Notes under the pieces: generated by a model | The model's database searches: none | What the model was told of the DNA's origin: nothing | The model's input: only the letters and a program-made list of their open reading frames with translations | Origin: Geobacter metallireducens GS-15 | GTDB taxonomy: Bacteria; Desulfobacterota; Desulfuromonadia; Geobacterales; Geobacteraceae | DNA length: 32,000 bases | Reading direction: 5' to 3' | Assembly (NCBI RefSeq): GCF_000012925.1 | Contig: NC_007517.1 | Span: 660,001 to 692,000 of the forward strand | Translations under genes and position numbers: made by a program | In this document: one piece after another, positions 1-18,006 of the stretch | Numbering within the stretch: position 1 is the first letter of the stretch | How the letters are laid out: every line of letters starts with the position of its first letter

Positions 1-592
1 GATACGGTACAAGGGTGTGCGGATTTTCCAGGGGAAGTCCTACGGCAGGGCATTTTTCGTGAAGTTCACGGGACAGGACGGCCAGGAGCACGGCGAGGTT
101 TTCTCCCTCGACCAGCCAACTGACCGAAATACTGCCTCATACAAGGATTTTGTCCTCCCCTGGCTGCCGAGCGCACTCAAAACCAAATATTACGGGGATG
201 CCGACCGGCGTTCCCTTGACGGGAGCAACCCCCTCTTCGTGATGCGCCTCATGGAGGGCGGAAAGGCTGTCGCGGAGCTTCCCCTGAAGGTGGGGGAGAC
301 GGGGCGCTTGGGCGGCTACACGGCCCAGTTGGTCAAGGTGGAGCGCTGGGGGGGGTTGATTTTTATCGACACCACGGGCATGGCGGGAATTTTCCTCGGA
401 TTCTTCATCGTCTGCCTGGGCGGGTCGCTGAGCTATTTCTGCCCCCCCCGGGAGTGCTCCCTTTCTCCCTCAGGGGAAGGGTGCCGGCTCTCCTGGCGGG
501 CAACGCGCTTTGAACGGCTCTACCGCGACGAGTTTGACTATCTCCGCCGGCTGGCGGGGTTGCCCGTTGCGACGGATGAGCGGAATGTTTGA
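1..592 (+). CDS. ResB/Ccs1-like cytochrome c biogenesis (System II) protein, C-terminal fragment; the 5' end lies upstream of the window
   Basis: Frame 2 is open from nt 2, so the listed GTG at 17 is internal. The C-terminal pattern LGGYTAQLVKVERWGGLIFIDTTGMAGIFLGFFIVCLGG (last hydrophobic helix) resembles ResB C-termini from memory. A CcsA/ResC-type gene follows at 1194. Confidence 0.55.
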   Translation, partial: IRYKGVRIFQGKSYGRAFFVKFTGQDGQEHGEVFSLDQPTDRNTASYKDFVLPWLPSALKTKYYGDADRRSLDGSNPLFVMRLMEGGKAVAELPLKVGETGRLGGYTAQLVKVERWGGLIFIDTTGMAGIFLGFFIVCLGGSLSYFCPPRECSLSPSGEGCRLSWRATRFERLYRDEFDYLRRLAGLPVATDERNV

Positions 593-620
593 CTATCTAT
601 TTCATGGGGAGTTGCATGAC

Positions 621-1193: not shown

Positions 1194-2030
1194 ATGCGTT
1201 TCATGGAAAGCTCTTTTTCGTCAATAACCATCATCCATTGGGCGGCAGTGGTCATCTACGTGCTCGCCACCATCTTCAACGTGGCAGGTCTCATCTTCCG
1301 CAAGGAACGCGCCACGGGGATCAGCTATCTCCTGGTGGGGGCGGGGCTTCTGGTGCACGGCATCGGCATCCTCTGGTGGTGGAAGATTGTCGGGCACGGC
1401 CCGTACATCGGCCGGTTCGAGGTCCTCTCTTCCCAGGCATGGATGGGGCTTTTCCTCTTCATGGTCTTTGCCCACTTCCTGCCGAAGATAAGGCCGGCGA
1501 GCATCCTGGTGTTTCCGGCCGCCTTCCTGATGATCGCCGTCGGCATCTTCTTCGAGCCCCAGGTGAAGATGCTGCCGCCGACGCTGCGCAGTGTCTGGCT
1601 CATCCTCCACGTGACCTTCTACAAGATTTCGGTCTGCACGCTCCTGGTGGCCCTGGCCTTTTCCATCTTCTTCATCCTGCGCAAGCGCACCGGCATCCAG
1701 TGGCTTACCCGCCTCCCCGACATGGAGACCATGGATATTCTCGCCTTCCGCTTCGCCGGCTTCAGCTTCACCTTTTGGGCCATCGCCATGCTGGCGGGGA
1801 GCATCTGGGCCTATGAATCGTGGGGGCGCTTCTGGGGGTGGGACCCCATCGAGACCTGGTCGCTCATTACCTGGGTGGCCTTCGGTATCTACCTGCACCT
1901 GCGGCGCTTCTTCGGGCTGAAGGGGGAAGCGGCGGCTTACCTCTACATCCTCTGCTTCCTGCTGTCGGTCCTCTCCCTCTTCTTTACGCCGCTGATCGGT
2001 GGCTCGGTCCATTCTGAGTACTTTAAATGA
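1194..2030 (+). CDS. ccsA: CcsA/ResC-type cytochrome c assembly (heme-handling) membrane protein
   Basis: 278-aa polytopic membrane protein carrying the Trp-rich WWD-type signature WGRFWGWDPIETWS, with conserved His residues nearby. The start could instead be the ATG at 1203. Confidence 0.8.
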   Translation: MRFMESSFSSITIIHWAAVVIYVLATIFNVAGLIFRKERATGISYLLVGAGLLVHGIGILWWWKIVGHGPYIGRFEVLSSQAWMGLFLFMVFAHFLPKIRPASILVFPAAFLMIAVGIFFEPQVKMLPPTLRSVWLILHVTFYKISVCTLLVALAFSIFFILRKRTGIQWLTRLPDMETMDILAFRFAGFSFTFWAIAMLAGSIWAYESWGRFWGWDPIETWSLITWVAFGIYLHLRRFFGLKGEAAAYLYILCFLLSVLSLFFTPLIGGSVHSEYFK

Positions 2031-2072
2031 TCCCGGCCCATGGCCGCTTTGCCTTGTACCTGGAGAGAACCA

Positions 2073-3320
2073 ATGAGTGATGACCGCCGGCGGGAGCTTT
2101 TCGAGACGATTCGTGACTACATCACCGACTCCCGCGGGGAGGACCGGTTCGAGTCGCTGGCGCTGGAGGTGTTCCGCTTCCAGTACGGGGCCAACGAGGC
2201 GTACCGTGCCTACTGCGACGGCAAGGGAATCAACCCTGCCGGGATTGGCCGCTGGGAGGATATCCCCGCCTATCCGTCGGACGCCTTCAAGAAGAACCTG
2301 GTCATTTCCTTCCCCTACGAGAAGACCGTCATGGCCAACATCACGGGGGGAACCACCGACCCTGACCTGCGCGGCATAATCTTTCGGGACGAGTATGGCC
2401 GCGAACTGGTGCTGGCGGCCAACCGCAAGGTGATGGGAGATTACGTCTTTCCCGAGGGGGAGCGGATGCCGATCCTGGTCCTTGCTCCGTCGCCGGAGAC
2501 GGCCCCGTCCATGGGAATGGCCATCGGCATGGCCGAGACAATACGTTCCTTCGGCACCGACCAGAGCGGCTTTTTCATCACGCGGCGGGGGTTCCTCATC
2601 CGGGAGTTCATGGACCGGCTCCGGGAACTGGTGGTGGCGGACAGGCCCGTGGCGCTCATCGGCTCCACCTCCGCCTTCATCTATTTCTTTAATGCCTGCC
2701 GGAAAAACGGCCTCCGCTTCGCGCTCCCGGCCGGGAGCCGCATTGTGGACGGCGGCGGGTACCGGGGTCGTTTCGGGGACTGCGGCCGCGATGAGTACTA
2801 CGAGCGGTGCCGCGACACCTTCGGCGTGGACCCCGCCTACTGTCTCAACGTCCTCGGCATGGCCGAGAGCGCCACGAACAGCGCCGATTCCAGCCTGAAA
2901 GACCTCCGCACGGGCCTCGACCGGGAGCGGATCAAGCCGGATCTTCCCTGGTGCCGCGTCGTGGCCATGGATATCGAGACCTGCTCGCGGGTGCTGCCGC
3001 CGGGGGAGGTGGGGCTCCTTCGCCACTACGATCTGGCGAACCTGCCGACGGTCCTCGGCGTGCAGACCGACAACCTGGGCTTCCGAACGGAAGACGGCTT
3101 CGAGATCATTGGCCGGGCCCAGGTGGTGGACGGCAAGGTGTCGCCGATGCCCTCGGAGAAGCCGGTGGGACCCATGGGGGAGAAAAAGATATTCTCCTTC
3201 CTCGATCTCTACATGAAATTCTCCATCGGCCGGTACGTGGCGAAGATCAAGAAGGATGATCCCCTCTGCCCCTGCGGCGAGGCCATCGAGGAGATGATCG
3301 TGCGGGAGGGGAATGAGTAG
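2073..3320 (+). CDS. LuxE-like acyl-protein synthetase / adenylate-forming enzyme family protein with a divergent nucleotide motif
   Basis: The N-terminal pattern FRFQYGANEAYRAYC...WEDIPAYPSDAFKK followed by a P-loop-like ITGGTTD matches my memory of the LuxE family layout (F.Q...N..Y...IP.LP...FK...SSGTTG). The SSGTTG motif is degenerate here. The ATG at 2073 has the RBS GGAGAG upstream; the listed ORF starts at 2040. Confidence 0.45.
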   Translation: MSDDRRRELFETIRDYITDSRGEDRFESLALEVFRFQYGANEAYRAYCDGKGINPAGIGRWEDIPAYPSDAFKKNLVISFPYEKTVMANITGGTTDPDLRGIIFRDEYGRELVLAANRKVMGDYVFPEGERMPILVLAPSPETAPSMGMAIGMAETIRSFGTDQSGFFITRRGFLIREFMDRLRELVVADRPVALIGSTSAFIYFFNACRKNGLRFALPAGSRIVDGGGYRGRFGDCGRDEYYERCRDTFGVDPAYCLNVLGMAESATNSADSSLKDLRTGLDRERIKPDLPWCRVVAMDIETCSRVLPPGEVGLLRHYDLANLPTVLGVQTDNLGFRTEDGFEIIGRAQVVDGKVSPMPSEKPVGPMGEKKIFSFLDLYMKFSIGRYVAKIKKDDPLCPCGEAIEEMIVREGNE

Positions 3321-3681
3321 AATGAAAAACAACATCCGTAGCATCGCCGTCATCCTGAACGGTTTTGTCCATGACTTCGCCGCCGGGATCTGGCTTGCCG
3401 CCATTGCCTCCATAGCCCTCATCCACCGGATGCATCAGCTCCGGTCGCCGGAAGTCGTCGCCATACTGAACCGGTTGGAGCATATTTTTTTCTGGACGAG
3501 CGTCGTTTCCATGGTTTTTATCATGGCCACCGGCGCCGGACGGACCTTTACCTACGTCGACAACTGGTACGGCGCCGACGCTGAGCGGGTTCGCCGCCGG
3601 ATGCTCATTATCAAGCATGTGGTTCTCCTTTCGGCTTTCGGCGCCGGCTATCTGTTCGTTTACCCGCTGGTGTTTCACTGA
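3313..3681 (+). CDS. Small hypothetical integral membrane protein (122 aa, about 3-4 hydrophobic helices)
   Basis: Its ATG overlaps the stop of the upstream gene (ATGAGTAG, 8-nt overlap), which suggests translational coupling. It contains hydrophobic segments such as FAAGIWLAAIASIALI, IFFWTSVVSMVFIMATGA and VVLLSAFGAGYLFVYPLVF. No family recognised. Confidence 0.55.
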   Translation: MSRMKNNIRSIAVILNGFVHDFAAGIWLAAIASIALIHRMHQLRSPEVVAILNRLEHIFFWTSVVSMVFIMATGAGRTFTYVDNWYGADAERVRRRMLIIKHVVLLSAFGAGYLFVYPLVFH

Positions 3682-3891: not shown

Positions 3892-5397
3892 ATGAAAATC
3901 AAGAGAATAGCCCTCATTACCCCCCCCTACCACGCGGGCGTTGTGGAGTCGGCCGGCACCTGGCTCAATGTCGGTTTTGTCTACATCGCCGGGGCACTCA
4001 GAGCGGCGGGGTACGAGGTGGATTACTACGATGCCATGTCTCTGTGGCACAAGTGGCCCGACATCCAGAAGCGGATCGAGGCGTTCCGCCCCGATATGGT
4101 TGCCACGACCGCCTATACCGCCTCCATTGTCGAAGCGGTGAAACTGCTCCGGTTCGCCAAGTCCATCAACCCCCGCATCGTGACGGCGCTCGGCAACGTC
4201 CACGCGGCCTTCTGTTACGACGAGGTTCTTACCCACGACCACGACGCCGTGGACTACATCGTCAGGGGGGAGGGGGAGGAGACGCTCCCCATGCTCTGCC
4301 ACTGCCTCAATGCCGGCGATGACCCGAAGAAGGTTCTCGGAATCGCCTACTGGCGCGACGGCGGGGTGGTGGTTACCCCCAAGGCCCCGTACATTCATGA
4401 CCTGGACAATCTTCCCACAGCCTGGGATCTGGTGGAGTGGCCCATCTATACCTACCGGGCCAAGAAGAACGCCCGGCTGGCCATCGTCTCCTCTTCCCGC
4501 GGCTGCAAATCCCAGTGTTCCTTCTGTTCCCAGCAGCTCTTCTGGGCCCAGTCATGGCGCGCCCGGAGCGCCGAGAACTTCGTGGCCGAGCTGGAGATGC
4601 TCCACAACGTCCACGGTGTCCAGGTGGCCATGCTCTCCGACGAGCTTCCCACCTTCGACCGGGAGCGGTGGGTCCGGATCCTGGATCTCATGGTGGAACG
4701 GGAAGTGCCGGTGAAGCTTCTCATGGAGACCCGGGTGGACGACATTCTGCGGGACGCCGATATCATGGACAAGTACCGGGAAGGTGGCGTTGAGCACATC
4801 TATGTGGGGGTCGAGGCGGGAAGCCAGGAAACCCTCGACCTCTTCAAGAAGGATACGGAAGTTGCCCAGTCCAAGCAGGCCATCGACCTGATTAATGGGG
4901 CCGACATCGTTTCGGAAACCTCTTTCGTCCTCGGCATGCCCGACGACACCCCTGAATCCATTGAGCAGACCATCGAGCTCGCCAAGCACTACAACCCTGA
5001 CATGGCGTTCTTTCTTGCCATCGCCCCCTGGCCCTATGCCGAGCTCTACCCCGAGCTCGAGCCCTACGTGGCCACCAAGGATTACCGCAAATACAACCTG
5101 GTGGAGCCGGTCATCAAGCCCAAAAACATGACCATGGAAGAACTGGAGCGCCAGTTGGGGAAAGCATCCCAGAAGTTCTTCATGCACAAGTTCCAGAACC
5201 TGGACAAGCTCTCCCCCTGGAAGCAGGAGTTCATGCTGTCGGTCCTCGATCTCCTCATTAACCACTCCTATCTGGCCGGCCAGATGAAGGCGATGCTCAA
5301 GGAGGGGAAGGAGATGCCCGCGGAGGTCAAGGCGCTCCTGAAAACGGTCAGCCAGCACAAGCATGTCCCCCACCAGACGATAGCGCCCATTCCATGA
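3892..5397 (+). CDS. B12-binding-domain radical SAM enzyme (class B rSAM, BchE/P-methylase-like)
   Basis: The N-terminal Rossmann-like region is IALITPPY...VGFVYIAGALRAAGYEVDYYD. The radical SAM cluster motif is SSSRGCKSQCSFCS (CX3CX2C). RBS GAGGAG lies upstream. Confidence 0.8.
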   Translation: MKIKRIALITPPYHAGVVESAGTWLNVGFVYIAGALRAAGYEVDYYDAMSLWHKWPDIQKRIEAFRPDMVATTAYTASIVEAVKLLRFAKSINPRIVTALGNVHAAFCYDEVLTHDHDAVDYIVRGEGEETLPMLCHCLNAGDDPKKVLGIAYWRDGGVVVTPKAPYIHDLDNLPTAWDLVEWPIYTYRAKKNARLAIVSSSRGCKSQCSFCSQQLFWAQSWRARSAENFVAELEMLHNVHGVQVAMLSDELPTFDRERWVRILDLMVEREVPVKLLMETRVDDILRDADIMDKYREGGVEHIYVGVEAGSQETLDLFKKDTEVAQSKQAIDLINGADIVSETSFVLGMPDDTPESIEQTIELAKHYNPDMAFFLAIAPWPYAELYPELEPYVATKDYRKYNLVEPVIKPKNMTMEELERQLGKASQKFFMHKFQNLDKLSPWKQEFMLSVLDLLINHSYLAGQMKAMLKEGKEMPAEVKALLKTVSQHKHVPHQTIAPIP

Positions 5398-5430
5398 GTT
5401 CTTTCCGTTTCACTGTACCGAACCGAACTC

Positions 5431-5446
5431 TGGCATGTGGAATGCT
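5431..5446 (+). promoter_or_regulatory. Candidate sigma54 (-24/-12) promoter upstream of cytochrome cassette copy 1
   Basis: TGGCATGTGGAATGCT compared with TGGCACG-N4-TTGCW. GG and GC are correctly spaced and 10 of 12 specified positions match. It would give a 5' UTR of about 160 nt. Confidence 0.45.
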
Positions 5447-5612
5447 AAATAGGTATTCAGTTGCAGCAAAATGTTTGAAATCAGTATGGGATGTTTAGAG
5501 GTATGCCGTCAAAGCACGGCGCGACCCCGTTATTAGGCGTCGTTTCCCCTCGGAGTGTCAACCACCAGTATTGGTTTTCAGATAAACAGTCCATTAAAGG
5601 AGGAGAAAGGGA

Positions 5613-8039
5613 GTGAACATGTACACTAAATTGAAAAAGTTGTTGCCGACGCTGATGGTGGCGGGAGCGATGGCGGTTGCGATGCTCCTCGGAACGGGCG
5701 CATCGAACAACGCCATGGCGCTGACCACGGACGACTGCCGTGGCTGTCATACCCCCCCACTGCCCGACACTATTGCCACTATGCACCATAGCCGGGCGAA
5801 TCTTAATGGATACGCGTGTGACTTTTGTCACAAGACTGTTTCCAACGGTTCCGGTGGCTTCGTTCTGCTCGATGTCTATAACTGCGGATCATGCCACGCC
5901 CTGGTTGACCACGCTGCTGCCCACGACAAGGCGTCCACCGCCCCTGATTGCGCCCAGTGCCACAGTCTTGGCATGGTGAACGAGCACCTCACGCGCACTT
6001 CCACTTGCTCCACCTGCCACAACAGCACGAAGCCCGAAGTGCAGAATACCATCACGATCGGCATGGGACCCGCCGGGCAGCCGGTCAACTGTCTCAATTG
6101 CCACATCAGCATCAACCACATCGCCCAGCATGACAAGGCCGTTCCCTCGGCCGAGTGCGTTTCCTGCCACGCCCAGGGGGTTGTCTACGAGCACCTGAAC
6201 CGTACTTCCACCTGTGCCACCTGCCACCAGAGTACCAACGCGGCGGTGGTGAAGGCGATCGCCGATGGCCGCGCCGGGATCACGGTCAACTGCGTTTCCT
6301 GCCACGGGGTGGTGAACCACATTGCCCAGCACGACAAGGCCACGGCTAACGTGGACTGCGCCCAGTGCCACAATCTTGGCGTGGTGAACGAGCACCTTTC
6401 CCGCACGTCCACCTGCGCCACCTGCCATTCCAGCACGGTTCCGGCGGTGCAGCAGACCATCGCAACCGGCAAGGCAGGCACGGTGGTTACCTGCTCCAAC
6501 TGCCACGTGAGTGTGAATCACATTGCCCAGCACAACATGGTGGTAACGCCTGCGGACTGCGCAGGGTGCCACACCCAGGGAGTGGTTTACGAGCACACGA
6601 ACCGGACCTCCACCTGCGCCACCTGCCACCAGAGCACCAACGCCACCGTTCAGAAAACGATCACCGACGGTCGGAACAATATCCAGGTATCCTGCGCCAA
6701 CTGCCACGGCACGGTGAACCACATTGCCCAGCACGACATGGCCCAGACCGCGGCCGAGTGCGCCCAGTGCCACACCAAGAGTGTCCTTGACGAGCACCTG
6801 ACCCGGACTTCCACCTGCGCCACCTGCCACTCCAGCTCCCGGGTTGAAGTCCAGAACGCCATCACCGCCGGCCGTGCCGGCACGGTGGTCAACTGCGTCA
6901 CCTGCCACGGCCAGTACAACCATCCCACGGCCCACACCGGCAAGGTCAGCGCTCCCTACGCCGACTGCAACACCTGCCACATCACCAACCTGACCGACCT
7001 GCACGCCCAGCGGGGCTTCCAGTGCGCCGCCTGCCACGCCAGCACCAACACGGCCATAACCGCGGCCGTCCAGAAAGGTCTCGGCGGTCAGCCGGTAGTC
7101 TGTGCCGACTGTCACAACGCCATCGGCGGCTTCGGTAACCATGCCGGCCAGCATGACAAAATCAGCCTCATCGACCAGACCGGCTTCATCGCCGCCCATG
7201 AAGAGAAAATGGTCTACTGCACCGCCTGCCACACCAGCACCAACGCCACGGTGGTCAAGGTCATCAACGACGGCATGGCCGGCATCCAGCAGAGCTGCAA
7301 CGCCTGCCACACCGTAGCCGGCAACAACCTGCCGCCGACCGCCAACGCCGGCGCCGACGTGACGGTTGGGGTCAACCAGGCGGTCACCTTCACCGGCAGC
7401 GGCACCGATCCCGACGGCACCATCGCCTCCTACGCCTGGAACTTCGGCGACGGCACCACCGGCAGCGGCGCCAGCGCCACCAAGACCTACACCACGGCCG
7501 GCACCTACACCGCGACTCTGACCGTCACCGACAACGCCGGGGCCACCGCCAGCGATACCGTCATCGTCACGGTCCAAGCGGCCCCGACCAGCAGCTCGGT
7601 CTTTGCCGACCAGGTTCTGTCCATGCAGCGGCTCTACTCCGTCACCTCCTCGGACAGCAACAGCAGCGATGTCACCGCCAACTTCCGCGACGGCAACACC
7701 ACCGACCGCTACCTGCTGCAGTATGGCAGCAGCGGCAGCAACTACGTCATCGCCATGAAACTGAACCGCGACGCCTTGACCGCCACCAAGGTGGTGCTGC
7801 GGGTGTACGTCTCCTCCATCAGCTCCTCGCGGACCCTGAGGATTTACCCGTACCAGTCTAACGGGACCTCGGTGAACACCCGCTACTACACGAGCTACAG
7901 CACGAGCAGCACCGGGTGGAAGGATATCGACGTCACCTCCATCGCCCAGCGGATGAACGGCTACGGCTGGATGAAATTCCGTGTCGCTCCCTCCTCGAGC
8001 AGCCTCTACGTTGCCGAGGGCGCCTTCCAGGTCCAGTAA
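5613..8039 (+). CDS. Secreted modular multiheme c-type cytochrome with 23 CXXCH motifs, a C-terminal PKD-like domain and an unassigned Ser/Thr-rich domain (cassette copy 1)
   Basis: Sec signal peptide ending in AMA. I counted 23 CXXCH motifs by eye. Five 67-69-aa triheme modules are present. The PKD-like segment is ANAGADVTV...YAWNFGDGTTGSG...YTATLTVTDNAGATASDTVIVTV. The start is GTG 5613 or ATG 5619, with RBS AAGGAGGA at 5598-5605. Confidence 0.9.
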   Translation: MNMYTKLKKLLPTLMVAGAMAVAMLLGTGASNNAMALTTDDCRGCHTPPLPDTIATMHHSRANLNGYACDFCHKTVSNGSGGFVLLDVYNCGSCHALVDHAAAHDKASTAPDCAQCHSLGMVNEHLTRTSTCSTCHNSTKPEVQNTITIGMGPAGQPVNCLNCHISINHIAQHDKAVPSAECVSCHAQGVVYEHLNRTSTCATCHQSTNAAVVKAIADGRAGITVNCVSCHGVVNHIAQHDKATANVDCAQCHNLGVVNEHLSRTSTCATCHSSTVPAVQQTIATGKAGTVVTCSNCHVSVNHIAQHNMVVTPADCAGCHTQGVVYEHTNRTSTCATCHQSTNATVQKTITDGRNNIQVSCANCHGTVNHIAQHDMAQTAAECAQCHTKSVLDEHLTRTSTCATCHSSSRVEVQNAITAGRAGTVVNCVTCHGQYNHPTAHTGKVSAPYADCNTCHITNLTDLHAQRGFQCAACHASTNTAITAAVQKGLGGQPVVCADCHNAIGGFGNHAGQHDKISLIDQTGFIAAHEEKMVYCTACHTSTNATVVKVINDGMAGIQQSCNACHTVAGNNLPPTANAGADVTVGVNQAVTFTGSGTDPDGTIASYAWNFGDGTTGSGASATKTYTTAGTYTATLTVTDNAGATASDTVIVTVQAAPTSSSVFADQVLSMQRLYSVTSSDSNSSDVTANFRDGNTTDRYLLQYGSSGSNYVIAMKLNRDALTATKVVLRVYVSSISSSRTLRIYPYQSNGTSVNTRYYTSYSTSSTGWKDIDVTSIAQRMNGYGWMKFRVAPSSSSLYVAEGAFQVQ
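5907..6917 (+). repeat. In-frame tandem coding repeat: five triheme modules (207, 201, 201, 201 and 201 nt) inside the 23-heme cytochrome gene
   Basis: The NHIAQH codon block recurs at 6114, 6315, 6516 and 6717, exactly 201 nt apart. A related DHAAAH block sits at 5907 and a degenerate NHPTAH block at 6918. Each module carries 3 CXXCH plus 3 additional conserved His. Confidence 0.9.
6525..7066 (+). repeat. Near-identical duplicated tract, copy 1 (partner 10048..10589)
   Basis: Manual alignment at a constant offset of +3523 nt gave one mismatch (near 6575) in 542 nt. Identity falls off sharply on both flanks. Confidence 0.9.
7578..8039 (+). repeat. High-identity duplicated tract covering the C-terminal domain, copy 1 (partner 11101..11562)
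   Basis: Manual alignment at offset +3523 found about 20 differences in about 460 nt. Most are third-position synonymous changes. Confidence 0.85.
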
Positions 8040-8087
8040 GGGAGGTGTGACGTGAACAGAATCCAGCGAACCGAATGGAGGAAAGAA

Positions 8088-9170
8088 ATGAAGCGCATCG
8101 TCATCACTACAGCCGCGCTCCTCGCCATGGCGGCTCCGGCCATGGCGGGACACACCGCCGCGGTTGGGCAGGGGAACTGCTCCTACTGCCATAAAGTAAA
8201 CCTGGTAACCCAGCACGGCGGCTTTGCCGCCACCGTCTGCCAGACCTGCCACGACATCCCGGCAACCGACGGCATGGCAACCGCCGTGAAGGACACTATC
8301 GCTGCCGGGGTAGCCGGCCAACAGTACGCCTGCTCCAACTGCCACGGGTCGCAGTCCCATGCCCAGAAACATCCCGGCTACGCGGCGAACTACTCCACGT
8401 ATAACGGGGTTGAGCCGGGCTACGGCACCACGACGTGGACCGGAGCGACCAGCTATACCCCGGCAACGCCGGCAGCCAAGATGTACCAACTCTGCGTCAA
8501 GTGCCACTCCTCCAACGGCCTTGGCGCCACAACCAATGCCACGTCTGGTGTTGTTGGTCCTTCCGGGCTCAACCTGACGGATCAGGCCTGGGAGTTCAGC
8601 CCCACCAACCGGTCCGCCCACCCGGTCATCGTCACCCTCAACAACCAGACCGGCTCCCCCGCACCGCGCGCCCTGAAAACAACGGAAATGAAGGCGCCGT
8701 GGCTGAATGTCGGAAACCAGACTATGACCTGCGCCGACTGCCACGACTTCGTCGATACCGGTATTCAGGGGGCGGGAATCACCTGGTCCCTGAAGGGGAC
8801 CAACAAGGCATGGCCCTACACTGTGGCCGGGGTTACCACCGGCACCTTCCAGACGATGAACAACAACTCCATGTCGTTCTGCTGGAACTGTCACAACTTC
8901 TCCGGGGCAGGCGAGGTTCACACCACCGGTGACCATAGCGGCGTCAAGTGTATCGACTGTCATATTCGGGTGCCCCATGGCGGCAAGGTGTCGCGGCTCA
9001 TTGGGACAGCCACCCCCGGCCTGCCTGCCCGTTACTCGGGCGACGGCAAGGGAGGCGAGATGCCTCACGTCACCGCCTTCAAGAAGGCCGCCTCGGGAAC
9101 GTACGGTACGTCCAGCTGCAGCACCAACTGCGGTGAGCATGGTTCCATATCAGGGGGCGAAACCTGGTAG
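8088..9170 (+). CDS. Secreted multiheme c-type cytochrome with 7 CXXCH motifs (partner gene, cassette copy 1)
   Basis: Signal peptide MKRIVITTAALLAMAAPAMA. The 7 CXXCH motifs are CSYCH, CQTCH, CSNCH, CVKCH, CADCH, CWNCH and CIDCH. The ATG at 8088 has RBS GGAGGA 5 nt upstream and matches the paralog's start; the listed ORF begins at GTG 8052. Confidence 0.88.
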   Translation: MKRIVITTAALLAMAAPAMAGHTAAVGQGNCSYCHKVNLVTQHGGFAATVCQTCHDIPATDGMATAVKDTIAAGVAGQQYACSNCHGSQSHAQKHPGYAANYSTYNGVEPGYGTTTWTGATSYTPATPAAKMYQLCVKCHSSNGLGATTNATSGVVGPSGLNLTDQAWEFSPTNRSAHPVIVTLNNQTGSPAPRALKTTEMKAPWLNVGNQTMTCADCHDFVDTGIQGAGITWSLKGTNKAWPYTVAGVTTGTFQTMNNNSMSFCWNCHNFSGAGEVHTTGDHSGVKCIDCHIRVPHGGKVSRLIGTATPGLPARYSGDGKGGEMPHVTAFKKAASGTYGTSSCSTNCGEHGSISGGETW

Positions 9171-9200
9171 AGTGCAATTGAGTTTGTTTCAAGAGAGAAT

Positions 9201-9224
9201 GGCCGGGGGAGCCTTCCCCCGGCC
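9201..9224 (+). other. Perfect 10-bp GC-rich hairpin (GGCCGGGGGA-gcct-TCCCCCGGCC) just after the cassette 1 stop
   Basis: The inverted repeat was read directly. It is followed by an A-run rather than a T-run, so it is not a canonical intrinsic terminator on the + strand. Confidence 0.5.
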
Positions 9225-9281
9225 TCACTGAAAAAACTCAACAGAAGAGGTCATAGTGGACGAACTCCATAACCTACTCAA

Positions 9282-9308
9282 GGCGGCAGATACGGTGCCG
9301 CCTTTTTT
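9282..9308 (+). terminator. Rho-independent terminator separating cassette copy 1 from copy 2
   Basis: GGCGGCA-gatacgg-TGCCGCC followed by TTTTTT. Confidence 0.8.
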
Positions 9309-9315
9309 GTACTTC

Positions 9316-9344
9316 TTGCAATATGTGTCACAAATAACTAATAT
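9316..9344 (+). promoter_or_regulatory. Candidate sigma70 promoter for cassette copy 2
   Basis: TTGCAA (9316-9321), a 17-nt spacer, then TAATAT (9339-9344). It lies about 80 nt upstream of the ATG at 9424. Confidence 0.5.
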
Positions 9345-9423
9345 TCGTTAATCAATGGTTGGGGCTTGATTCTTCTCGTTGGTCGTGTAAAAGGCTGTGT
9401 CACGGAGTTGAAAGGGGAAAAAG

Positions 9424-11562
9424 ATGAAGACTGAAGATGGCTCTGAAAGGGGGCGCCTGACCGTTTTTGCGCTGCTGGCACTGTTCCTGTTCGTGCCGAT
9501 TATGCAGCCCGAGGCCCATGCGCTTGTTGAGAACAATTGCAGGGGGTGTCATAACGATGCGCAGGGGAAAACCGCGGACCGGCACCATGCGCTGCTCAGT
9601 CTAGGAAAGCAATGTCTTGACTGCCACCAGATGGTTGGTCCGTCCGGAAGTCAGACTCCTGTTGTGGTTCGCGATTGCATTGCATGTCATGGCGACCTGA
9701 TTCACCAGGGACGACACCATCAACTGATCGCTGAGCGCGGTAAACAATGCCTTGACTGTCACCAGATAGTTGTGGACGCTTCCGGCGCCAATACGCCCGT
9801 TGTGGTCCGGGACTGCAGTGTCTGTCATGCGACCATGAACCCCAAGACCAATCACAATAATGCCATGGCCGATGTCAGTTGCGCCCAGTGCCATAACCTT
9901 GGTGTGGTGAACGAGCATCTTTCCCGCACGTCCACCTGCTATACCTGTCACAGCAGCGTTAATGTCACGGTGCAACAGACTATACTTTCCGCAAAGACAG
10001 GGGTCGTGGTCACCTGTACTTCCTGCCACGTTGGTTTTGATCACGTAGCCCAGCACAACATGGTGGTAACGCCTGCGGACTGCGCAGGGTGCCACACTCA
10101 GGGAGTGGTTTACGAGCACACGAACCGGACCTCCACCTGCGCCACCTGCCACCAGAGCACCAACGCCACCGTTCAGAAAACGATCACCGACGGTCGGAAC
10201 AATATCCAGGTATCCTGCGCCAACTGCCACGGCACGGTGAACCACATTGCCCAGCACGACATGGCCCAGACCGCGGCCGAGTGCGCCCAGTGCCACACCA
10301 AGAGTGTCCTTGACGAGCACCTGACCCGGACTTCCACCTGCGCCACCTGCCACTCCAGCTCCCGGGTTGAAGTCCAGAACGCCATCACCGCCGGCCGTGC
10401 CGGCACGGTGGTCAACTGCGTCACCTGCCACGGCCAGTACAACCATCCCACGGCCCACACCGGCAAGGTCAGCGCTCCCTACGCCGACTGCAACACCTGC
10501 CACATCACCAACCTGACCGACCTGCACGCCCAGCGGGGCTTCCAGTGCGCCGCCTGCCACGCCAGCACCAACACGGCCATAACCGCGGCTGTTCAGAAAG
10601 GTCTCGGTGGCCAACCGGTTGTCTGTGCCGACTGCCACAACGCCATCGGCGGCTTCGGCAACCATGCGAAGCAGCACGACATGGTCACCCTCAACAGCAC
10701 CACCGGCTTCATCGCCGCCCATGAAGAGAAAATGGTTTACTGCTTCACCTGTCACAACAACACTAACGCCGGCTACCAGAAAGCCATCAACGATGGCATG
10801 GCCGGCATACCGCAGACCTGCACCTCCTGCCACGCCGCTTACGGCAACCAGCCTCCGGTGGCCAACGCCGGCGCCAATGTGACCACCACCGTCAACAAGG
10901 CAGTGACCCTCTCCGGGGCCGCTTCCAGCGACCCGGACGGCACCATCGTATCGTACGCCTGGACCTTCGGCGACGGCACCACCGGCAGTGGCGTCTCCGT
11001 CACCAAGACCTACGCCACGGCCGGCACCTACACCGTGACCCTGACCGTCACCGACAACGCCGGCGCCAGCGCCAGCGCCACCACCATCGTCACCGTCCAG
11101 GCGGCCCCGACCAGCAGCTCGGTCTTTGCCGACCAGGTTCTGTCCATGCAGCGGCTCTACTCCGTCACCTCCTCGGACAGCAACAGCAGCGACGTCACCG
11201 CCAACTTCCGCGACGGCAACACTACCGACCGCTACCTGCTGCAGTATGGCAGCAGCGGCAGCAACTACGTCATCGCCATGAAACTGAACCGCGATGCCCT
11301 GACCGCCACCAAGGTGGTGCTGCGGGTGTATGTCTCCTCCATCAGTTCCTCGCGGACCTTGAGGATCTACCCGTACCAGTCCAACGGAACCTCGGTGAAC
11401 ACCCGCTACTACACGAGCTACAGCACGAGCAGCACCGGGTGGAAGGATATCGACGTCACTTCCATCGCCCAGCAGATGAACGGCTACGGCTGGATGAAGT
11501 TCCGTGTCACCCCCACTTCGAACAGCCTCTACGTTGCCGAGGGTGCCTTCCAGGTACAGTAA
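9424..11562 (+). CDS. Secreted modular multiheme c-type cytochrome with 19 CXXCH motifs, a C-terminal PKD-like domain and an unassigned Ser/Thr-rich domain (cassette copy 2)
   Basis: Signal peptide ending in AHA. I counted 19 CXXCH motifs by eye. The N-terminal third differs from copy 1. The central modules and C-terminus are paralogous to copy 1 and partly identical to it. Confidence 0.9.
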   Translation: MKTEDGSERGRLTVFALLALFLFVPIMQPEAHALVENNCRGCHNDAQGKTADRHHALLSLGKQCLDCHQMVGPSGSQTPVVVRDCIACHGDLIHQGRHHQLIAERGKQCLDCHQIVVDASGANTPVVVRDCSVCHATMNPKTNHNNAMADVSCAQCHNLGVVNEHLSRTSTCYTCHSSVNVTVQQTILSAKTGVVVTCTSCHVGFDHVAQHNMVVTPADCAGCHTQGVVYEHTNRTSTCATCHQSTNATVQKTITDGRNNIQVSCANCHGTVNHIAQHDMAQTAAECAQCHTKSVLDEHLTRTSTCATCHSSSRVEVQNAITAGRAGTVVNCVTCHGQYNHPTAHTGKVSAPYADCNTCHITNLTDLHAQRGFQCAACHASTNTAITAAVQKGLGGQPVVCADCHNAIGGFGNHAKQHDMVTLNSTTGFIAAHEEKMVYCFTCHNNTNAGYQKAINDGMAGIPQTCTSCHAAYGNQPPVANAGANVTTTVNKAVTLSGAASSDPDGTIVSYAWTFGDGTTGSGVSVTKTYATAGTYTVTLTVTDNAGASASATTIVTVQAAPTSSSVFADQVLSMQRLYSVTSSDSNSSDVTANFRDGNTTDRYLLQYGSSGSNYVIAMKLNRDALTATKVVLRVYVSSISSSRTLRIYPYQSNGTSVNTRYYTSYSTSSTGWKDIDVTSIAQQMNGYGWMKFRVTPTSNSLYVAEGAFQVQ
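9580..9843 (+). repeat. In-frame two-fold coding repeat of about 132 nt, each unit a diheme segment (RHH...GKQCLDCHQ...TPVVVRDC..CH)
   Basis: RHHALLSLGKQCLDCHQMVGPSGSQTPVVVRDCIACHG aligns with RHHQLIAERGKQCLDCHQIVVDASGANTPVVVRDCSVCHA. Confidence 0.8.
10048..10589 (+). repeat. Near-identical duplicated tract, copy 2 (partner 6525..7066)
   Basis: See 6525..7066. The ORF track independently shows identical spurious off-frame ORFs at 6650..6943 and 10173..10466. Confidence 0.9.
11101..11562 (+). repeat. High-identity duplicated tract covering the C-terminal domain, copy 2 (partner 7578..8039)
   Basis: See 7578..8039. Confidence 0.85.
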
Positions 11563-11607
11563 CGTAGTGAGACTAATCAGAGTCCAGGAACTGAAAGGAG
11601 AAACGAA

Positions 11608-12657
11608 ATGAAGCGCATCGGGATCACATTCATCGCGCTCCTCGCTTTGGCCGCTCCGGCCATGGCGGGACACGTGGCAACCATAGGGACGGGCACGTGC
11701 GGTTCCTGTCATCGAACCAATCTGGTCACCCAGCACGGCGGTTTTGTCGCCACCGTCTGCCAGACCTGCCATGACAGCACCGTTGCTGCCGTCAAGGATA
11801 CCATTGCCACTGGTGTGGCGGGACAGCCCTATACCTGCTCCAACTGCCACGGGGCCGAGACGCATTTGAGCAAGCATGGTGATTACGCCGCGAATTTCGC
11901 CGCCTATAACGGCGTGGAACCGGTTACCAGTGGGATCTGGACGGCACCGTCATCGTACACAAAGGTTACTCCTGCAACCAAGGAGTACCAGGTATGCGTC
12001 AAGTGCCACTCATCCAACGGTCTTGGTTCAACCACCAATAGCGTGAGCGGCGTGACGGGACCGTCGGGGCTGCTTCTTACCGACCAAGCCATGGAATTCA
12101 GCCAGTATAACCGCTCCGGCCACCCCATTGTCACCGGTCTCAACAATTACCCCAATTCTCCCGCGCCCAAGGCCCTTGTGAAGACTCAACTGTCTTCGCC
12201 CTGGAACGTCAACATGGGCAAGCAGACAATGAAGTGCTTCGACTGCCACGGCGCCGATGGCAAGTTGGTTGGCGTCGGCAGGGACTGGCCCTACAACTCC
12301 GCCACCGGCCAGCTCTGGAAGCTCGGTGACGCCAGCAACAGCAAGCTGTTCTGCAAGAACTGCCACCCCCTCGTCAATACGAACAACACGCACTCGGAAA
12401 GCAACCACTCTAAATACCCCTGCGTGTATTGCCACACGCGGGTACCCCATGGCGGCAAGGTAAGCCGGTTGATTGTGACCTTCACTTCGGGACTGCCAAG
12501 CCGGTACTATCCTGACGGGAAAGGTGGCGGGACCCCCAGCTTGCAGGACAAATTGTTGCGCTACACCAAGGCGACATCGGCAAGCCGCTATGACACGCCG
12601 TCCTGCGACGCGGATTGCCACGGCTCCCACCAGAACACAACCGGTGAGGCCTGGTAG
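11608..12657 (+). CDS. Secreted multiheme c-type cytochrome with 7 CXXCH plus one CX3CH motif (partner gene, cassette copy 2)
   Basis: Signal peptide MKRIGITFIALLALAAPAMA. The motifs are CGSCH, CQTCH, CSNCH, CVKCH, CFDCH, CKNCH and CVYCH, plus a C-terminal CDADCH. It is collinear with 8088..9170 but clearly more diverged than the large genes are from each other. Confidence 0.88.
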   Translation: MKRIGITFIALLALAAPAMAGHVATIGTGTCGSCHRTNLVTQHGGFVATVCQTCHDSTVAAVKDTIATGVAGQPYTCSNCHGAETHLSKHGDYAANFAAYNGVEPVTSGIWTAPSSYTKVTPATKEYQVCVKCHSSNGLGSTTNSVSGVTGPSGLLLTDQAMEFSQYNRSGHPIVTGLNNYPNSPAPKALVKTQLSSPWNVNMGKQTMKCFDCHGADGKLVGVGRDWPYNSATGQLWKLGDASNSKLFCKNCHPLVNTNNTHSESNHSKYPCVYCHTRVPHGGKVSRLIVTFTSGLPSRYYPDGKGGGTPSLQDKLLRYTKATSASRYDTPSCDADCHGSHQNTTGEAW

Positions 12658-12713: not shown

Positions 12714-12747
12714 GGGGCGTCTGTCGTATGCGGCAGGCGCCCCTTTT
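12714..12747 (+). terminator. Probable intrinsic terminator after cassette copy 2
   Basis: GGGGCG(tc)...(gg)CGCCCC stem followed by TTTT. Confidence 0.55.
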
Positions 12748-12852
12748 ACGTCATCCCTTCCCATTGGTCTGCCCCTTCCCAATGCTCAATTTTCCTGCAG
12801 CTAATCAGGGTCTCCCCCTCGTTTGGGCTGATTTCACTTTGCCGGTTTTTTG

Positions 12853-17519: not shown

Positions 17520-17554
17520 TCGGTTCAGAGAATATACGGATCAGGAGATAACGA

Positions 17555-17947
17555 ATGGCAGCAATCAGCTACTACGGTACGGGTAAGCGGAAATCGTCGG
17601 TCGCCAGGGTCTGGCTGAAGCCGGGGACCGGGAACATTGTCATCAACAACAAGTCCATCGACGACTACTTCGGGCGCGAGACTTCCAAGATGGTCGTCAA
17701 ACAGCCTTTGGAACTGGTTGAGAAAGTGGGCAACTTCGACATCTATGTGAACGTCCGCGGCGGCGGCGACTCTGGTCAGGCCGGCGCCATCAAGCATGGC
17801 ATTACGAAAGCTCTTCTCGAAGTGGACGTCGCCCTCCGCGGCACCCTCAAGAAGGCTGGTTTCATCACCCGTGACTCCCGCATCAAGGAGCGGAAGAAGT
17901 ACGGTAAGCGCGCCGCCCGGAGAAGCTGCCAGTTCTCCAAGCGCTAA
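17555..17947 (+). CDS. rpsI: 30S ribosomal protein S9
   Basis: [13 protein letters not shown]..., [19 protein letters not shown] and the C-terminus [17 protein letters not shown]. Confidence 0.95.
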
Positions 17948-17976
17948 GCGCATCATCTGCAGCCACGGCTGTTCAA

Positions 17977-18006
17977 GGGGAAAATCCATTCGGGTTTTCC
18001 CCTTTT
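17977..18006 (+). terminator. Intrinsic terminator after rpsI
   Basis: GGGGAAAA-tccattcggg-TTTTCCCC followed by TTTT. Confidence 0.7.

What the first reader, a model, noticed from the sequence alone, without database searches (positions are those of the whole stretch)
5613..12657. Tandem duplication of a two-gene multiheme cytochrome cassette with no porin or anchor partner
Two collinear units lie head to tail, separated by a hairpin, a terminator and a promoter.
- Unit 1 is 5613-9170: a 23-CXXCH giant cytochrome plus a 7-CXXCH cytochrome.
- Unit 2 is 9424-12657: a 19-CXXCH giant cytochrome plus a 7(+1)-motif cytochrome.
- All four proteins have Sec-type signal peptides and none has a lipobox Cys.
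- No beta-barrel porin gene accompanies them, unlike the known porin-cytochrome conduits of Geobacter and Shewanella.

The giant proteins fuse a long array of heme modules to a PKD-like domain and a further C-terminal domain. Together the four genes carry 56 canonical heme-binding motifs in about 7 kb. This suggests a dedicated extracytoplasmic electron-transfer or storage device, possibly a cell-surface or matrix-attached heme wire, with a cognate small partner. I do not recognise it as a characterised system.
Basis: partly seen in the sequence, partly recalled or inferred. Interest (0 to 1): 0.75.

Follow-up and report, generated by a model that had tools for sequence, protein, structure and literature searches.

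The report
Known Geobacter multihaem cytochrome gene pairs
These are four already catalogued cytochrome genes of the metal-respiring bacterium Geobacter metallireducens (Gmet_0598 to Gmet_0601): two related pairs, each a long haem "wire" protein plus a small partner, one of which has already been shown by deletion to matter for reducing iron minerals and electrodes.

Summary
Four + strand genes carry 23, 7, 19 and 7 CXXCH motifs (56 in total), have signal-peptide-like N-termini without a lipobox, and form two collinear big-plus-small units separated by a hairpin and a terminator.

The window is Geobacter metallireducens GS-15 and the genes are Gmet_0598 to Gmet_0601. They are annotated and expressed. 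A published Gmet_0601 deletion impairs ferrihydrite and anode reduction but not Fe(III)-citrate reduction. The cassette matches a G. sulfurreducens pair, inferred to be GSU2887/GSU2886.

The large proteins are chains of 67-residue trihaem modules with exactly two His per haem. They end in a PKD domain and an unannotated beta-sandwich module that resembles a carbohydrate-binding module and could itself be the anchor.

Each small protein is one such trihaem module fused to a haem module found across many phyla. Elsewhere that module sits in clusters resembling the published uet cluster (NHL, PPIase, likely porin, ResB/CcsA).

The two cassettes are old paralogues (small proteins 54% identical), partly homogenised by gene conversion (a 491-bp exact tract). 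The tandem layout recurs in G. hydrogenophilus and arose independently in another genome, so it is not an assembly artefact.

Ordinary as a discovery; the biochemical mechanism is still open.

The parts
2..592 (+). 3' part of the ResB-type cytochrome c biogenesis gene (probably Gmet_0592). The window starts inside it.
   Evidence: tblastn of the G. sulfurreducens ResB from L001: residues 244-426 match at 51% identity, E 6e-63. The genome paper pairs Gmet_0592..0594 with GSU2891-2890.
1194..2030 (+). CcsA/ResC-type System II cytochrome c synthase subunit (Gmet_0594).
   Evidence: PF01578, E 1.7e-34. TIGR03144, 141.6 bits, below its 187.6 cut-off.
2040..3320 (+). LuxE-like acyl-protein synthetase (Gmet_0595).
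   Evidence: PF04443, E 8.6e-19. The same family recurs next to related cytochromes in L001, L007, L009, L010, L036, L044 and L045.
3313..3681 (+). Small 122-aa hydrophobic protein (probably Gmet_0596), conserved between CcsA and the radical SAM gene.
   Evidence: ORF. Homologues in the same position in L001, L007, L009, L010 and L076.
3892..5397 (+). B12-binding radical SAM enzyme, BchE-like (Gmet_0597, ABB30840.1).
   Evidence: PF02310 plus PF04055. NCBIfam BchE, 399 bits against a 481 cut-off. Accession; locus tag. It is 50-68% identical to syntenic copies in other phyla.
5619..8039 (+). Big cytochrome 1, Gmet_0598 (ABB30841.1). It has 23 CXXCH and 46 His. Layout: signal peptide, haem array of 67-aa trihaem modules, PKD, beta-sandwich C-terminal domain.
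6165..6909 (+). Internal tandem repeat with a 402-bp period (two trihaem modules), 1.9 copies, 73% matches.
   Evidence: Tandem Repeats Finder. Module alignment.
6576..7066 (+). Exact 491-bp identity tract shared with 10099-10589 in big cytochrome 2; a gene-conversion tract.
   Evidence: Sliding identity and longest exact runs.
7326..7574 (+). PKD domain of big cytochrome 1 (residues 572-654).
   Evidence: PF18911, E 1.8e-22. Foldseek matches to collagenase PKD domains with TM 0.9 normalised to the target.
7575..8036 (+). C-terminal beta-sandwich domain of big cytochrome 1 (154 aa, 19% Ser). No Pfam family reaches threshold.
   Evidence: AF2 model of PKD plus this domain, pLDDT 91. Best Foldseek hit is PKD-CBM44, 2c26, E 2e-11. 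CBM_11 scores only E 0.02. 94 representative clusters among 1.84 billion proteins.
8088..9170 (+). Small cytochrome 1, Gmet_0599 (AFR42802.1), 7 CXXCH.
9201..9224 (.). Perfect 10-bp GC-rich hairpin just after small cytochrome 1.
   Evidence: Fold -24.3 kcal/mol, z -3.9.
9280..9310 (+). Intrinsic-terminator-like hairpin plus T-run ending unit 1.
   Evidence: Fold -16.4 kcal/mol, z -3.5.
9424..11562 (+). Big cytochrome 2, Gmet_0600 (ABB30843.1). It has 19 CXXCH and 39 His, with the same architecture as big cytochrome 1. PKD is about 10846-11094 and the C-terminal domain is 11098-11559.
11608..12657 (+). Small cytochrome 2, Gmet_0601 (ABB30844.1), with 7 CXXCH plus CDADCH. A deletion phenotype is published.
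12714..12750 (+). Intrinsic-terminator-like hairpin plus T-run ending unit 2.
   Evidence: Fold -27.2 kcal/mol, z -5.4.

Best explanation
Identity:
- The region holds Gmet_0598 to Gmet_0601 of Geobacter metallireducens GS-15. These are two paralogous two-gene operons of the same family as a G. sulfurreducens pair inferred to be GSU2887/GSU2886.

The big proteins:
- Each is Sec-exported and receives its haems in the periplasm. A System II ResB/CcsA set is encoded just upstream.
- Each is a single-polypeptide haem wire: tandem 67-residue trihaem modules, 19 or 23 haems, with just enough His (46 and 39) for bis-His ligation of every haem.
- At about 1 nm per haem, by analogy with GSU1996 (my recollection, not tested), the wire would be roughly 20 nm long.
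- Its C-terminus is a PKD spacer plus a beta-sandwich module like a carbohydrate-binding module. I infer this tethers the wire to the cell surface, the exopolysaccharide matrix or a mineral.

The small proteins:
- Each is one of the same trihaem modules fused to a four-haem module conserved across phyla.
- I infer it is the adaptor at one end of the wire. It would take electrons from outer-membrane conduits encoded elsewhere, or hand them to the acceptor.

Overall:
- Together they extend extracellular electron transfer to insoluble acceptors.

Shown here or published: gene identity, architecture, homology, synteny, expression and the Gmet_0601 deletion phenotype.
Inferred: extracellular location, contact between big and small proteins, the anchoring role, and the direction of electron flow.
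For: Identity:
- Exact protein matches to GS-15 accessions. Locus tags come from supplementary tables.

Orthology:
- A G. sulfurreducens protein of 884 aa with 27 CXXCH is 66% identical over 96% of the query.
- It is followed by a 7-haem homologue of the small protein. It is preceded by the same radical SAM, CcsA and ResB genes.
- GSU2887 is described as a 27-haem, predicted extracellular cytochrome.

Architecture:
- Six Cytochrome_C7 stretches plus PKD.
- Periodic CXXCH spacing of 19/26/22 and aligned modules.
- His to haem ratio of exactly 2:1 in Gmet_0598 (46/23) and in the G. sulfurreducens protein (54/27).

C-terminal domain:
- The model has pLDDT 91. The best fold match is PKD-CBM44.
- A distant Nitrospiraceae homologue carries a true F5/8 type C lectin-like domain in the same place, followed by a small cytochrome.
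- The domain also ends other multihaem cytochromes and occurs in multi-PKD or Ig proteins without cytochrome domains.

Small protein:
- Its N-terminal module is 42-50% identical to big-protein modules over 55-62 residues.

Function:
- The Gmet_0601 deletion lowers ferrihydrite and anode reduction but not Fe(III)-citrate reduction, and is complemented.
- Gmet_0598, 0600 and 0601 rise about two-fold in some DIET comparisons.
Against: - Extracellular location rests only on predictions quoted in papers. No fractionation data were found.
- No secretion or porin gene lies in the cluster, so how a protein of about 80 kDa with 23 haems would cross the outer membrane is unexplained.
- Physical contact between the big and small proteins is untested.
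- The small-protein model has low confidence (pLDDT 63) and no structural match.
- The C-terminal domain misses every CBM Pfam threshold.
- Only Gmet_0601 has a phenotype. Expression changes are modest, about two-fold.
Confidence: 0.6

Rival explanations
1. Periplasmic wire or capacitor. The big proteins stay in the periplasm and bridge or store electrons between the inner-membrane quinol oxidases and the outer-membrane conduits. This is what has been proposed for GSU1996-type proteins and for the 21- to 27-haem periplasmic PCC3 cytochromes. The PKD and beta-sandwich end would bind the peptidoglycan or the inner face of the outer membrane. Only the small protein would reach the outside.
For: - There are Sec signals only, and no lipobox, porin or secretion gene in the cluster.
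- The haem modules hit the c7 family, whose characterised members are periplasmic.
- Long periplasm-spanning cytochromes have been proposed in other bacteria.
- Haem-rich proteins have been proposed as electron stores.
Against: - PKD plus CBM-like or lectin-like ends are typical of secreted and surface proteins. The same C-terminal domain occurs in multi-PKD or Ig proteins.
- Published predictors place GSU2887 and Gmet_0601 outside the cell.
- The Gmet_0601 phenotype is specific to insoluble acceptors.
Confidence: 0.22
2. The small cytochrome is not a plain relay. It would be an enzyme or a carrier of a specially modified haem. Its conserved module would need its own haem synthase (ResB/CcsA) and a BchE-like B12 radical SAM enzyme. 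The big protein would merely feed it electrons.
For: - The module is conserved across many phyla, with near-invariant polar residues besides the haem ligands: K132, D159, E163, N168, M208, R287 and Y300.
- 41 of 61 loci with enough downstream DNA carry CcsA, 32 carry ResB and 19 carry the radical SAM gene, all in a fixed order.
- The radical SAM enzyme is closest to the tetrapyrrole-modifying BchE and is 50-68% identical across phyla.
Against: - Every conserved haem has a canonical CXXCH, and there are roughly enough conserved His or Met residues for six-coordination.
- No match was found to any catalytic multihaem family above threshold.
- Geobacter has four ResB/ResC pairs next to cytochrome clusters, which the genome paper reads as aids to expression.
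- The published phenotype is loss of mineral and electrode reduction.
Confidence: 0.12
3. The second cassette is an assembly artefact, a collapsed or mis-joined repeat.
For: - There is a 491-bp exact repeat, and the C-terminal domains are about 98% identical.
- Draft assemblies of related strains break these genes into partial fragments.
Against: - The two units differ strongly outside the converted tracts. The small proteins are only 54% identical, and the N-terminal haem regions and signal peptides are unrelated.
- G. hydrogenophilus has the same five consecutive genes, GLI38620 to GLI38624.
- An unrelated MAG has its own tandem pair.
- Both units are detected separately in RNA-seq.
Confidence: 0.01

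Closest known systems
G. sulfurreducens GSU2887 (27-haem cytochrome) with the adjacent small cytochrome inferred to be GSU2886
   Same: - Full-length homology: 66% identity over 96% of the query.
- The same order of haem array, PKD and C-terminal domain.
- The same 7-haem gene immediately downstream.
- The same upstream ResB, CcsA, small membrane protein and BchE-like radical SAM genes.
   Different: - G. sulfurreducens has one cassette with 27 haems. G. metallireducens has two, with 23 and 19.
- Where the second cassette sits, G. sulfurreducens has the cGAMP-riboswitch-controlled NHL/OmcA/OmcH/OmcG operon.
- No GEMM riboswitch is present in this window.
- The locus-tag assignment is inferred from haem count and gene order, not read from a record.
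Poly-c7 'nanowire' cytochromes such as GSU1996 (OmcQ family)
   Same: A single polypeptide built from repeated trihaem modules that hit Pfam Cytochrome_C7 (six stretches, 104 bits). A linear haem chain is expected.
   Different: - No significant sequence match to any solved c7 or GSU1996 chain.
- Different CXXCH spacing.
- The His count here is enough for bis-His ligation of every haem. From memory, GSU1996 domains have one His-Met haem.
- This protein adds PKD and beta-sandwich domains.
uet (undecahaem electron transfer) cluster of Tenderiales and Gallionella
   Same: - The C-terminal module of the small cytochromes is homologous to the C-terminal part of 10- to 11-haem proteins.
- Those proteins sit in clusters with NHL (two copies), SurA-like PPIase, a likely beta-barrel, then ResB/CcsA.
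- This gene content matches the published uet cluster. A dedicated ResB/CcsA is also present here.
   Different: - The window has no NHL, PPIase or barrel gene.
- The small proteins have 7 haems, not 11.
- Direct comparison with Ca. Tenderia UetJ was not possible.
- The radical SAM and LuxE-like genes are not part of the published uet description.
Porin-cytochrome conduits (MtrCAB, Geobacter Pcc and Ext complexes)
   Same: Multihaem cytochromes serving electron transfer to insoluble acceptors.
   Different: - No porin gene.
- No lipoprotein cytochrome.
- MtrA/DmsE and MtrC/OmcA family models score far below threshold.
PKD-CBM44 module of Clostridium thermocellum Cel9D-Cel44A (PDB 2c26)
   Same: It is the best structural match to the modelled C-terminal 244 residues, covering both domains (Foldseek E 2e-11).
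   Different: - Only 20% identity.
- The two-domain superposition is poor (TM 0.34, rmsd 11 A), so the similarity is at the level of each domain.
- No CBM Pfam model reaches threshold.
- Ligand binding is untested.

Membership tests
GSU2887/GSU2886-type cassette | Full-length homology of the big protein to the G. sulfurreducens 27-haem protein | tested here: met
   P0011: 66% identity, 96% coverage, 1264 bits. Separate hits for the haem region (8e-251), PKD (2e-33) and C-terminal domain (1e-72).
GSU2887/GSU2886-type cassette | A small 7-haem cytochrome gene immediately downstream | tested here: met
   L001 12709-13770: 7 CXXCH, E 5e-100 to Gmet_0601. The same holds in L005, L006, L007 (twice) and L042.
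GSU2887/GSU2886-type cassette | Upstream ResB, CcsA and B12 radical SAM synteny | tested here: met
GSU2887/GSU2886-type cassette | The G. sulfurreducens genes really carry the tags GSU2887 and GSU2886 | not testable with these tools
   Inferred from three published statements: '27-heme cytochrome gene GSU2887', OmcAHG = GSU2885-2882 and Gmet_0592..0594 = GSU2891-2890. L001 comes from a different strain and carries no locus tags.
OmcG/OmcH/OmcA (GSU2882-2884) | GSu_C4xC__C2xCH domain (PF09698) and homology to those proteins | tested here: not met
   PF09698 marks the downstream G. sulfurreducens cytochromes but is absent from all four window proteins.
cGAMP/GEMM-I riboswitch regulon | A GEMM-I riboswitch in the 5' leader | tested here: not met
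   No Rfam hit at gathering score in the window. None at E up to 10 in 5300-5700, and none for GEMM in 9100-9500.
Porin-cytochrome conduit (MtrCAB/Pcc/Ext) | An adjacent outer-membrane beta-barrel gene | tested here: not met
   The flanking genes scanned are ResB, an unknown 209-aa ORF, CcsA, a LuxE-like gene, a small membrane protein, the radical SAM gene, and further downstream two aspartate-semialdehyde dehydrogenase-type genes and housekeeping genes. The two genes right after Gmet_0601 are leuB and asd by the published tables and by cross-locus homology. The 209-aa ORF at 510-1139 has no Pfam hit and is too short for such a barrel.
Porin-cytochrome conduit (MtrCAB/Pcc/Ext) | An MtrA/DmsE-type or MtrC/OmcA-type decahaem, or a lipoprotein cytochrome | tested here: not met
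   TIGR03508 scores 77 bits against a 192 cut-off. TIGR03507 scores 24-28 bits against 209. No lipobox.
Polymerising cytochrome filaments (OmcS/OmcE/OmcZ) | Sequence or fold similarity to a solved filament subunit | tested here: inconclusive
   No PDB sequence hit for either small protein or for the haem part of the big one. Foldseek found nothing, but the model is poor (pLDDT 63).
Poly-c7 cytochromes (GSU1996 type) | Repeated c7-type trihaem domains | tested here: met
   PF14522: 104 bits against a 24.8 cut-off, six stretches. 67-aa modules with three CXXCH each.
Poly-c7 cytochromes (GSU1996 type) | Detectable homology to solved c7 or GSU1996 chains | tested here: not met
   phmmer against the PDB gives no c7 or GSU1996 hit, even at E up to 10 for three modules.
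uet cluster / UetJ-like cytochromes | Gene neighbourhood of NHL (two copies), PPIase and beta-barrel, plus ccsAB | tested here: not met
   In the window only the ResB/CcsA part is present. The full neighbourhood is present around homologues of the small protein in other phyla.
uet cluster / UetJ-like cytochromes | Homology to Ca. Tenderia electrophaga UetJ itself | not tested
   No UetJ sequence was available. The paper says NCBI treats it as a pseudogene.
Carbohydrate-binding module (CBM44/CBM11-like) | A beta-sandwich fold following a PKD domain | tested here: met
   AF2 pLDDT 91, all-beta. The top Foldseek hit is 2c26, PKD-CBM44, E 2e-11. Surface glycan-binding proteins follow.
Carbohydrate-binding module (CBM44/CBM11-like) | A sequence-family match above threshold | tested here: not met
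   CBM_11 scores E 0.02-0.03, about 15 bits against a 27 cut-off. The PDB sequence search with the domain alone gives nothing significant.
Carbohydrate-binding module (CBM44/CBM11-like) | Actual glycan binding | not testable with these tools
   Needs binding assays.

The most novel reading that the evidence does not exclude
The small cytochromes belong to a haem-protein family found across many phyla. In those other phyla its genes are locked to their own ResB/CcsA haem synthase, a small membrane protein, a BchE-like B12 radical SAM enzyme and often a LuxE-like adenylating enzyme. The most novel reading is that this family carries a chemically modified haem or a radical-SAM-made crosslink that ordinary maturation cannot install. 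On this reading the Geobacter big-plus-small cassette is a porin-less offshoot of the uet-type conduit, in which a matrix-anchored 19- to 27-haem wire replaced the barrel, NHL and PPIase partners. I found no paper describing the link between the radical SAM enzyme and these cytochromes.
Probability: 0.15. Interest if true: 0.75.

Novelty: already known. Interest (0 to 1): 0.3.

Why it matters
As a discovery it adds little. The genes are annotated in a model organism, appear in several transcriptome tables, have G. sulfurreducens counterparts, and one has a published deletion phenotype.

What remains open is mechanism.
- Authors state that it is unclear what such large cytochromes do outside the cell.
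- The analysis here gives concrete handles:
  - a modular wire whose His count (two per haem) is just enough for bis-His ligation of every haem;
  - a candidate anchoring module that no domain database names;
  - a partner whose conserved module ties Geobacter to uet-like clusters in other phyla;
  - a conserved maturation set that includes a BchE-like radical SAM enzyme.
- If that enzyme acts on these cytochromes, it would be a new step in cytochrome c maturation.

Tried and rejected
- OmcG/OmcH orthology. This was my first guess, from the leuB/asd neighbourhood. I rejected it because those proteins carry PF09698 and lie downstream of the true orthologue pair in G. sulfurreducens.
- cGAMP (GEMM-I) riboswitch control. 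I expected it from the literature on OmcAHG. No Rfam hit was found at either leader.
- PDB sequence searches for the small proteins, the haem modules and the C-terminal domain alone. Nothing significant beyond PKD.
- AF2 model of Gmet_0601. Mean pLDDT was 63, and Foldseek gave no hit below E 4.8, so it is uninformative.
- Hematite-binding motif search ([ST][hydrophobic][ST]P[ST]). No occurrence in any of the four proteins.
- A 'bigMHC' cluster seen next to Campylobacterota homologues. It was a single-linkage artefact, because phmmer with the Gmet_0598 haem region found no hit there.
- The CX3CH of Gmet_0601 as an eighth haem. The two Cys are near-invariant among close relatives, but the following His is not (small 1 has CSTNCGEH). 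A disulfide is as likely.
- Smith et al. 2013 (PMC3568551), on G. metallireducens cytochrome deletions, is not held and could not be read.
- A first MAFFT run on untrimmed module sequences timed out, and a quick realignment was poor. It was replaced by hmmalign.

Full report
**Observation.**
- The four ORFs are real and lie on the + strand.
- The units are collinear. DNA 6357-8256 aligns with 9880-11776 at 88.6% identity. The big proteins are 77% identical and the small ones 54%.
- Between the units lie a perfect GC hairpin (9201-9224) and a terminator-like hairpin with a T-run (9280-9310). A stronger terminator follows unit 2.
- A sigma-70-type promoter is not confirmed. The best candidate, read by eye, matches 8 of 12 positions, below the scan threshold.
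- All four N-termini look like Sec signal peptides with AxA sites and no lipobox. This check is heuristic.

**Identity.**
- The window is Geobacter metallireducens GS-15. Exact matches are:
  - ABB30841.1 and WP_011365692 for big cytochrome 1;
  - AFR42802.1 for small cytochrome 1;
  - ABB30843.1 for big cytochrome 2;
  - ABB30844.1 for small cytochrome 2.
- Published tables tie these accessions to Gmet_0598, Gmet_0600 and Gmet_0601. They tie the upstream radical SAM gene to Gmet_0597, and the downstream genes to leuB and asd.
- Gmet_0599 appears there as an expressed 'hypothetical protein'.

**What is already published.**
- The genome paper places Gmet_0571 to Gmet_0601 in a run of ten same-strand cytochrome operons. 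It notes dedicated ResB/ResC pairs, including Gmet_0592..0594 = GSU2891-2890.
- Gmet_0598, 0600 and 0601 rise about two-fold in some DIET comparisons.
- A 2025 study deleted Gmet_0601. Fe(III)-citrate reduction was unaffected, ferrihydrite and anode reduction were impaired, and complementation restored activity. The protein is predicted to be extracellular.

**Orthology.**
- I first suspected OmcG/OmcH. That is wrong.
- In G. sulfurreducens the closest relative is an 884-aa protein with 27 CXXCH, 66% identical over 96% of the query.
- It is followed by a 7-haem homologue of the small protein and preceded by ResB, CcsA, a small membrane protein and the same radical SAM enzyme.
- Downstream come an NHL protein and cytochromes carrying PF09698. 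These are the cGAMP-controlled OmcAHG operon, GSU2885-2882.
- With '27-heme cytochrome gene GSU2887', the pair is GSU2887/GSU2886 by inference.
- In keeping with this, the window has no GEMM riboswitch.

**Anatomy of the big proteins.**
- After the signal peptide comes a haem array built from a 67-residue module. Its consensus is roughly HIAQHD...C.QCH..GVV.EH..RTSTCATCH.ST...V...I..G..G..V.C.NCHG.VNH, with CXXCH spacing of 19/26/22.
- Gmet_0598 has about six such modules plus terminal haems. A 402-bp, two-module tandem repeat is still visible in the DNA.
- Relatives carry 19, 22, 23, 25 or 27 haems, so module gain and loss is ongoing.
- Histidines number exactly twice the haems in Gmet_0598 (46/23) and in the G. 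sulfurreducens protein (54/27). That is just enough His for bis-His ligation of every haem and leaves none spare. Whether any haem is open or catalytic cannot be decided from counts alone.
- Pfam sees six Cytochrome_C7 stretches. No solved c7 or GSU1996 chain is detectably similar.
- A PKD domain follows, and then a 154-residue Ser-rich domain with no family above threshold.
- The PKD plus C-terminal region models confidently as all-beta (pLDDT 91). Its best structural match is the PKD-CBM44 pair of a clostridial cellulase, followed by surface glycan-binding proteins.
- A Nitrospiraceae relative has 11 haems, two PKD domains and a true F5/8 type C domain in the same position. It is also followed by a small cytochrome.
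- The C-terminal domain is rare: 94 representative clusters among 1.84 billion proteins. It ends other multihaem cytochromes and also occurs in multi-PKD or Ig proteins without cytochrome domains.
- I read it as a binding or anchoring module. This is inference.

**Anatomy of the small proteins.**
- The first three haems form one module of the big-protein type, 42-50% identical over 55-62 residues. The mature N-terminus begins Gly-His.
- The remaining four haems form a module conserved far beyond Geobacter. At least 487 genome hits span many phyla.
- There the module usually forms the C-terminal part of proteins with 7 to 43 haems.
- Its conserved features are CXXCH sites at C77, C130, C210, C249 and C272, together with H172, H281, M208, W199 and R287.
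- The model of Gmet_0601 is poor and matches no solved structure.

**Wider context (outside the finding).**
- Across 80 loci the commonest gene order, complete in some loci and partial in others, is as follows:
  - a cytochrome;
  - NHL;
  - a SurA-like PPIase;
  - a roughly 560-aa protein with a signal peptide and a C-terminal SRxF (a likely outer-membrane barrel);
  - NHL;
  - a 10- or 11-haem family member;
  - ResB;
  - CcsA;
  - a small unannotated protein;
  - a BchE-like B12 radical SAM enzyme.
- In gene content this matches the published uet cluster of Tenderiales and Gallionella, including ccsAB. I could not compare sequences with UetJ itself.
- The radical SAM enzyme is closest to BchE (399 bits against a 481 cut-off). 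It is 50-68% identical across phyla.
- I found no paper linking such an enzyme to multihaem cytochromes.
- G. metallireducens keeps the maturation genes and a 7-haem family member. It lacks the barrel, NHL and PPIase genes and has the PKD-bearing wire instead.

**History of the two cassettes.**
- The small proteins fall into three clades: the Gmet_0599 type, the Gmet_0601 type and the G. sulfurreducens type. Genomes with a single cassette carry one type. The two units are therefore old paralogues, or one was acquired.
- The big genes nevertheless share a 491-bp exact tract (6576-7066 = 10099-10589), and their C-terminal domains are about 98% identical. The flanking sequence is 60-88% identical. 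This is a gene-conversion pattern.
- G. hydrogenophilus has the same five consecutive genes.
- A Desulfuromonadales MAG has its own recent tandem pair, 25+7 and 19+7 haems, whose small proteins are each other's closest relatives.
- Together with separate RNA-seq signals, this excludes an assembly artefact.

**Mechanism.**
- Best supported: a secreted haem wire of about 20 nm, tethered by its PKD and beta-sandwich end. Its small adaptor shares the wire's module at one end and the conserved family module at the other. Together they extend electron transfer from outer-membrane conduits encoded elsewhere to minerals, electrodes or partner cells.
- Identity, architecture, synteny and the Gmet_0601 phenotype are shown here or published.
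- Location, pairing, anchoring and the direction of electron flow are inferred.
- The main rival keeps the big protein in the periplasm as a bridge or capacitor.
- A minor rival makes the small protein a special-cofactor enzyme.

**Verdict.** But these are known, named genes with published expression data and one deletion phenotype, so novelty is low. The unannotated C-terminal domain and the conserved maturation set with the radical SAM enzyme are the parts worth following up.

Noticed in passing
window 3892-5397 (Gmet_0597), with 2-592, 1194-2030, 2040-3320 and 3313-3681; also L013, L025, L039, L040, L055, L060, L064, L071, L073, L078, L080 and L082: A BchE-like B12 radical SAM enzyme is conserved next to relatives of the small cytochrome in Nitrospirota, Verrucomicrobia, Elusimicrobia, Acidobacteria and others. 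It is 50-68% identical across phyla and keeps a fixed order with ResB, CcsA and a small unannotated protein. A LuxE-like acyl-protein synthetase recurs as well. I found no paper on this link.
   Followed up: partly
L013 3400-5079, L016 3479-5158, L053 3958-5733 and 13 other loci: A protein of about 560 aa with no Pfam hit has a signal peptide and a conserved C-terminal ...SR[PAT]F. It lies between a SurA-like PPIase and an NHL propeller, upstream of the 10- or 11-haem cytochrome. It is probably the outer-membrane barrel of uet-like clusters. Geobacter lacks it at this locus.
   Followed up: partly
window 7575-8036 and 11098-11559: The 154-aa Ser-rich C-terminal beta-sandwich domain has no Pfam or NCBIfam family. 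It forms a small family of 94 representative clusters. It ends several other multihaem cytochromes and occurs in multi-PKD or Ig proteins.
   Followed up: partly
window 6576-7066 = 10099-10589: A 491-bp exact identity tract lies inside paralogues that are otherwise 60-88% identical. This points to recent gene conversion between the two big cytochrome genes. The small genes are untouched.
   Followed up: yes
L007 5157-12519 (Desulfuromonadales MAG GT-UBC1): An independent, recent tandem duplication of the same cassette (25+7 and 19+7 haems). Here ResB/CcsA lie downstream rather than upstream.
   Followed up: partly
L042 6060-9101 (Nitrospiraceae MAG): A distant version of the pair. The big protein has 11 haems, two PKD domains and an F5/8 type C lectin-like domain, and is followed by a 7-haem small cytochrome. 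It lies downstream of CcsA and the radical SAM gene.
   Followed up: no
window 510-1139 (+) and 17525-17989 (-): Two ORFs (209 aa and 154 aa) with no Pfam hit. The first lies between ResB and CcsA and is probably Gmet_0593.
   Followed up: no
window 14045-15145, 15149-16168 and 18043-19116: Two ORFs scanned here carry semialdehyde dehydrogenase domains, and they lie close to the annotated asd gene (14045-15145, not itself scanned). The window may therefore hold up to three such paralogues.
   Followed up: no
window 21964-22418 and 23935-24008: A cluster of five tRNA genes (Rfam). From memory of typical gene order, the ORFs beyond them look like the tuf, nusG, ribosomal protein and rpoB region. 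That was not checked with tools.
   Followed up: no
Gmet_0598 annotation: Papers list Gmet_0598 with 22 haems and Gmet_0601 with 8. The sequence has 23 CXXCH in Gmet_0598, and 7 CXXCH plus one CX3CH in Gmet_0601.
   Followed up: yes
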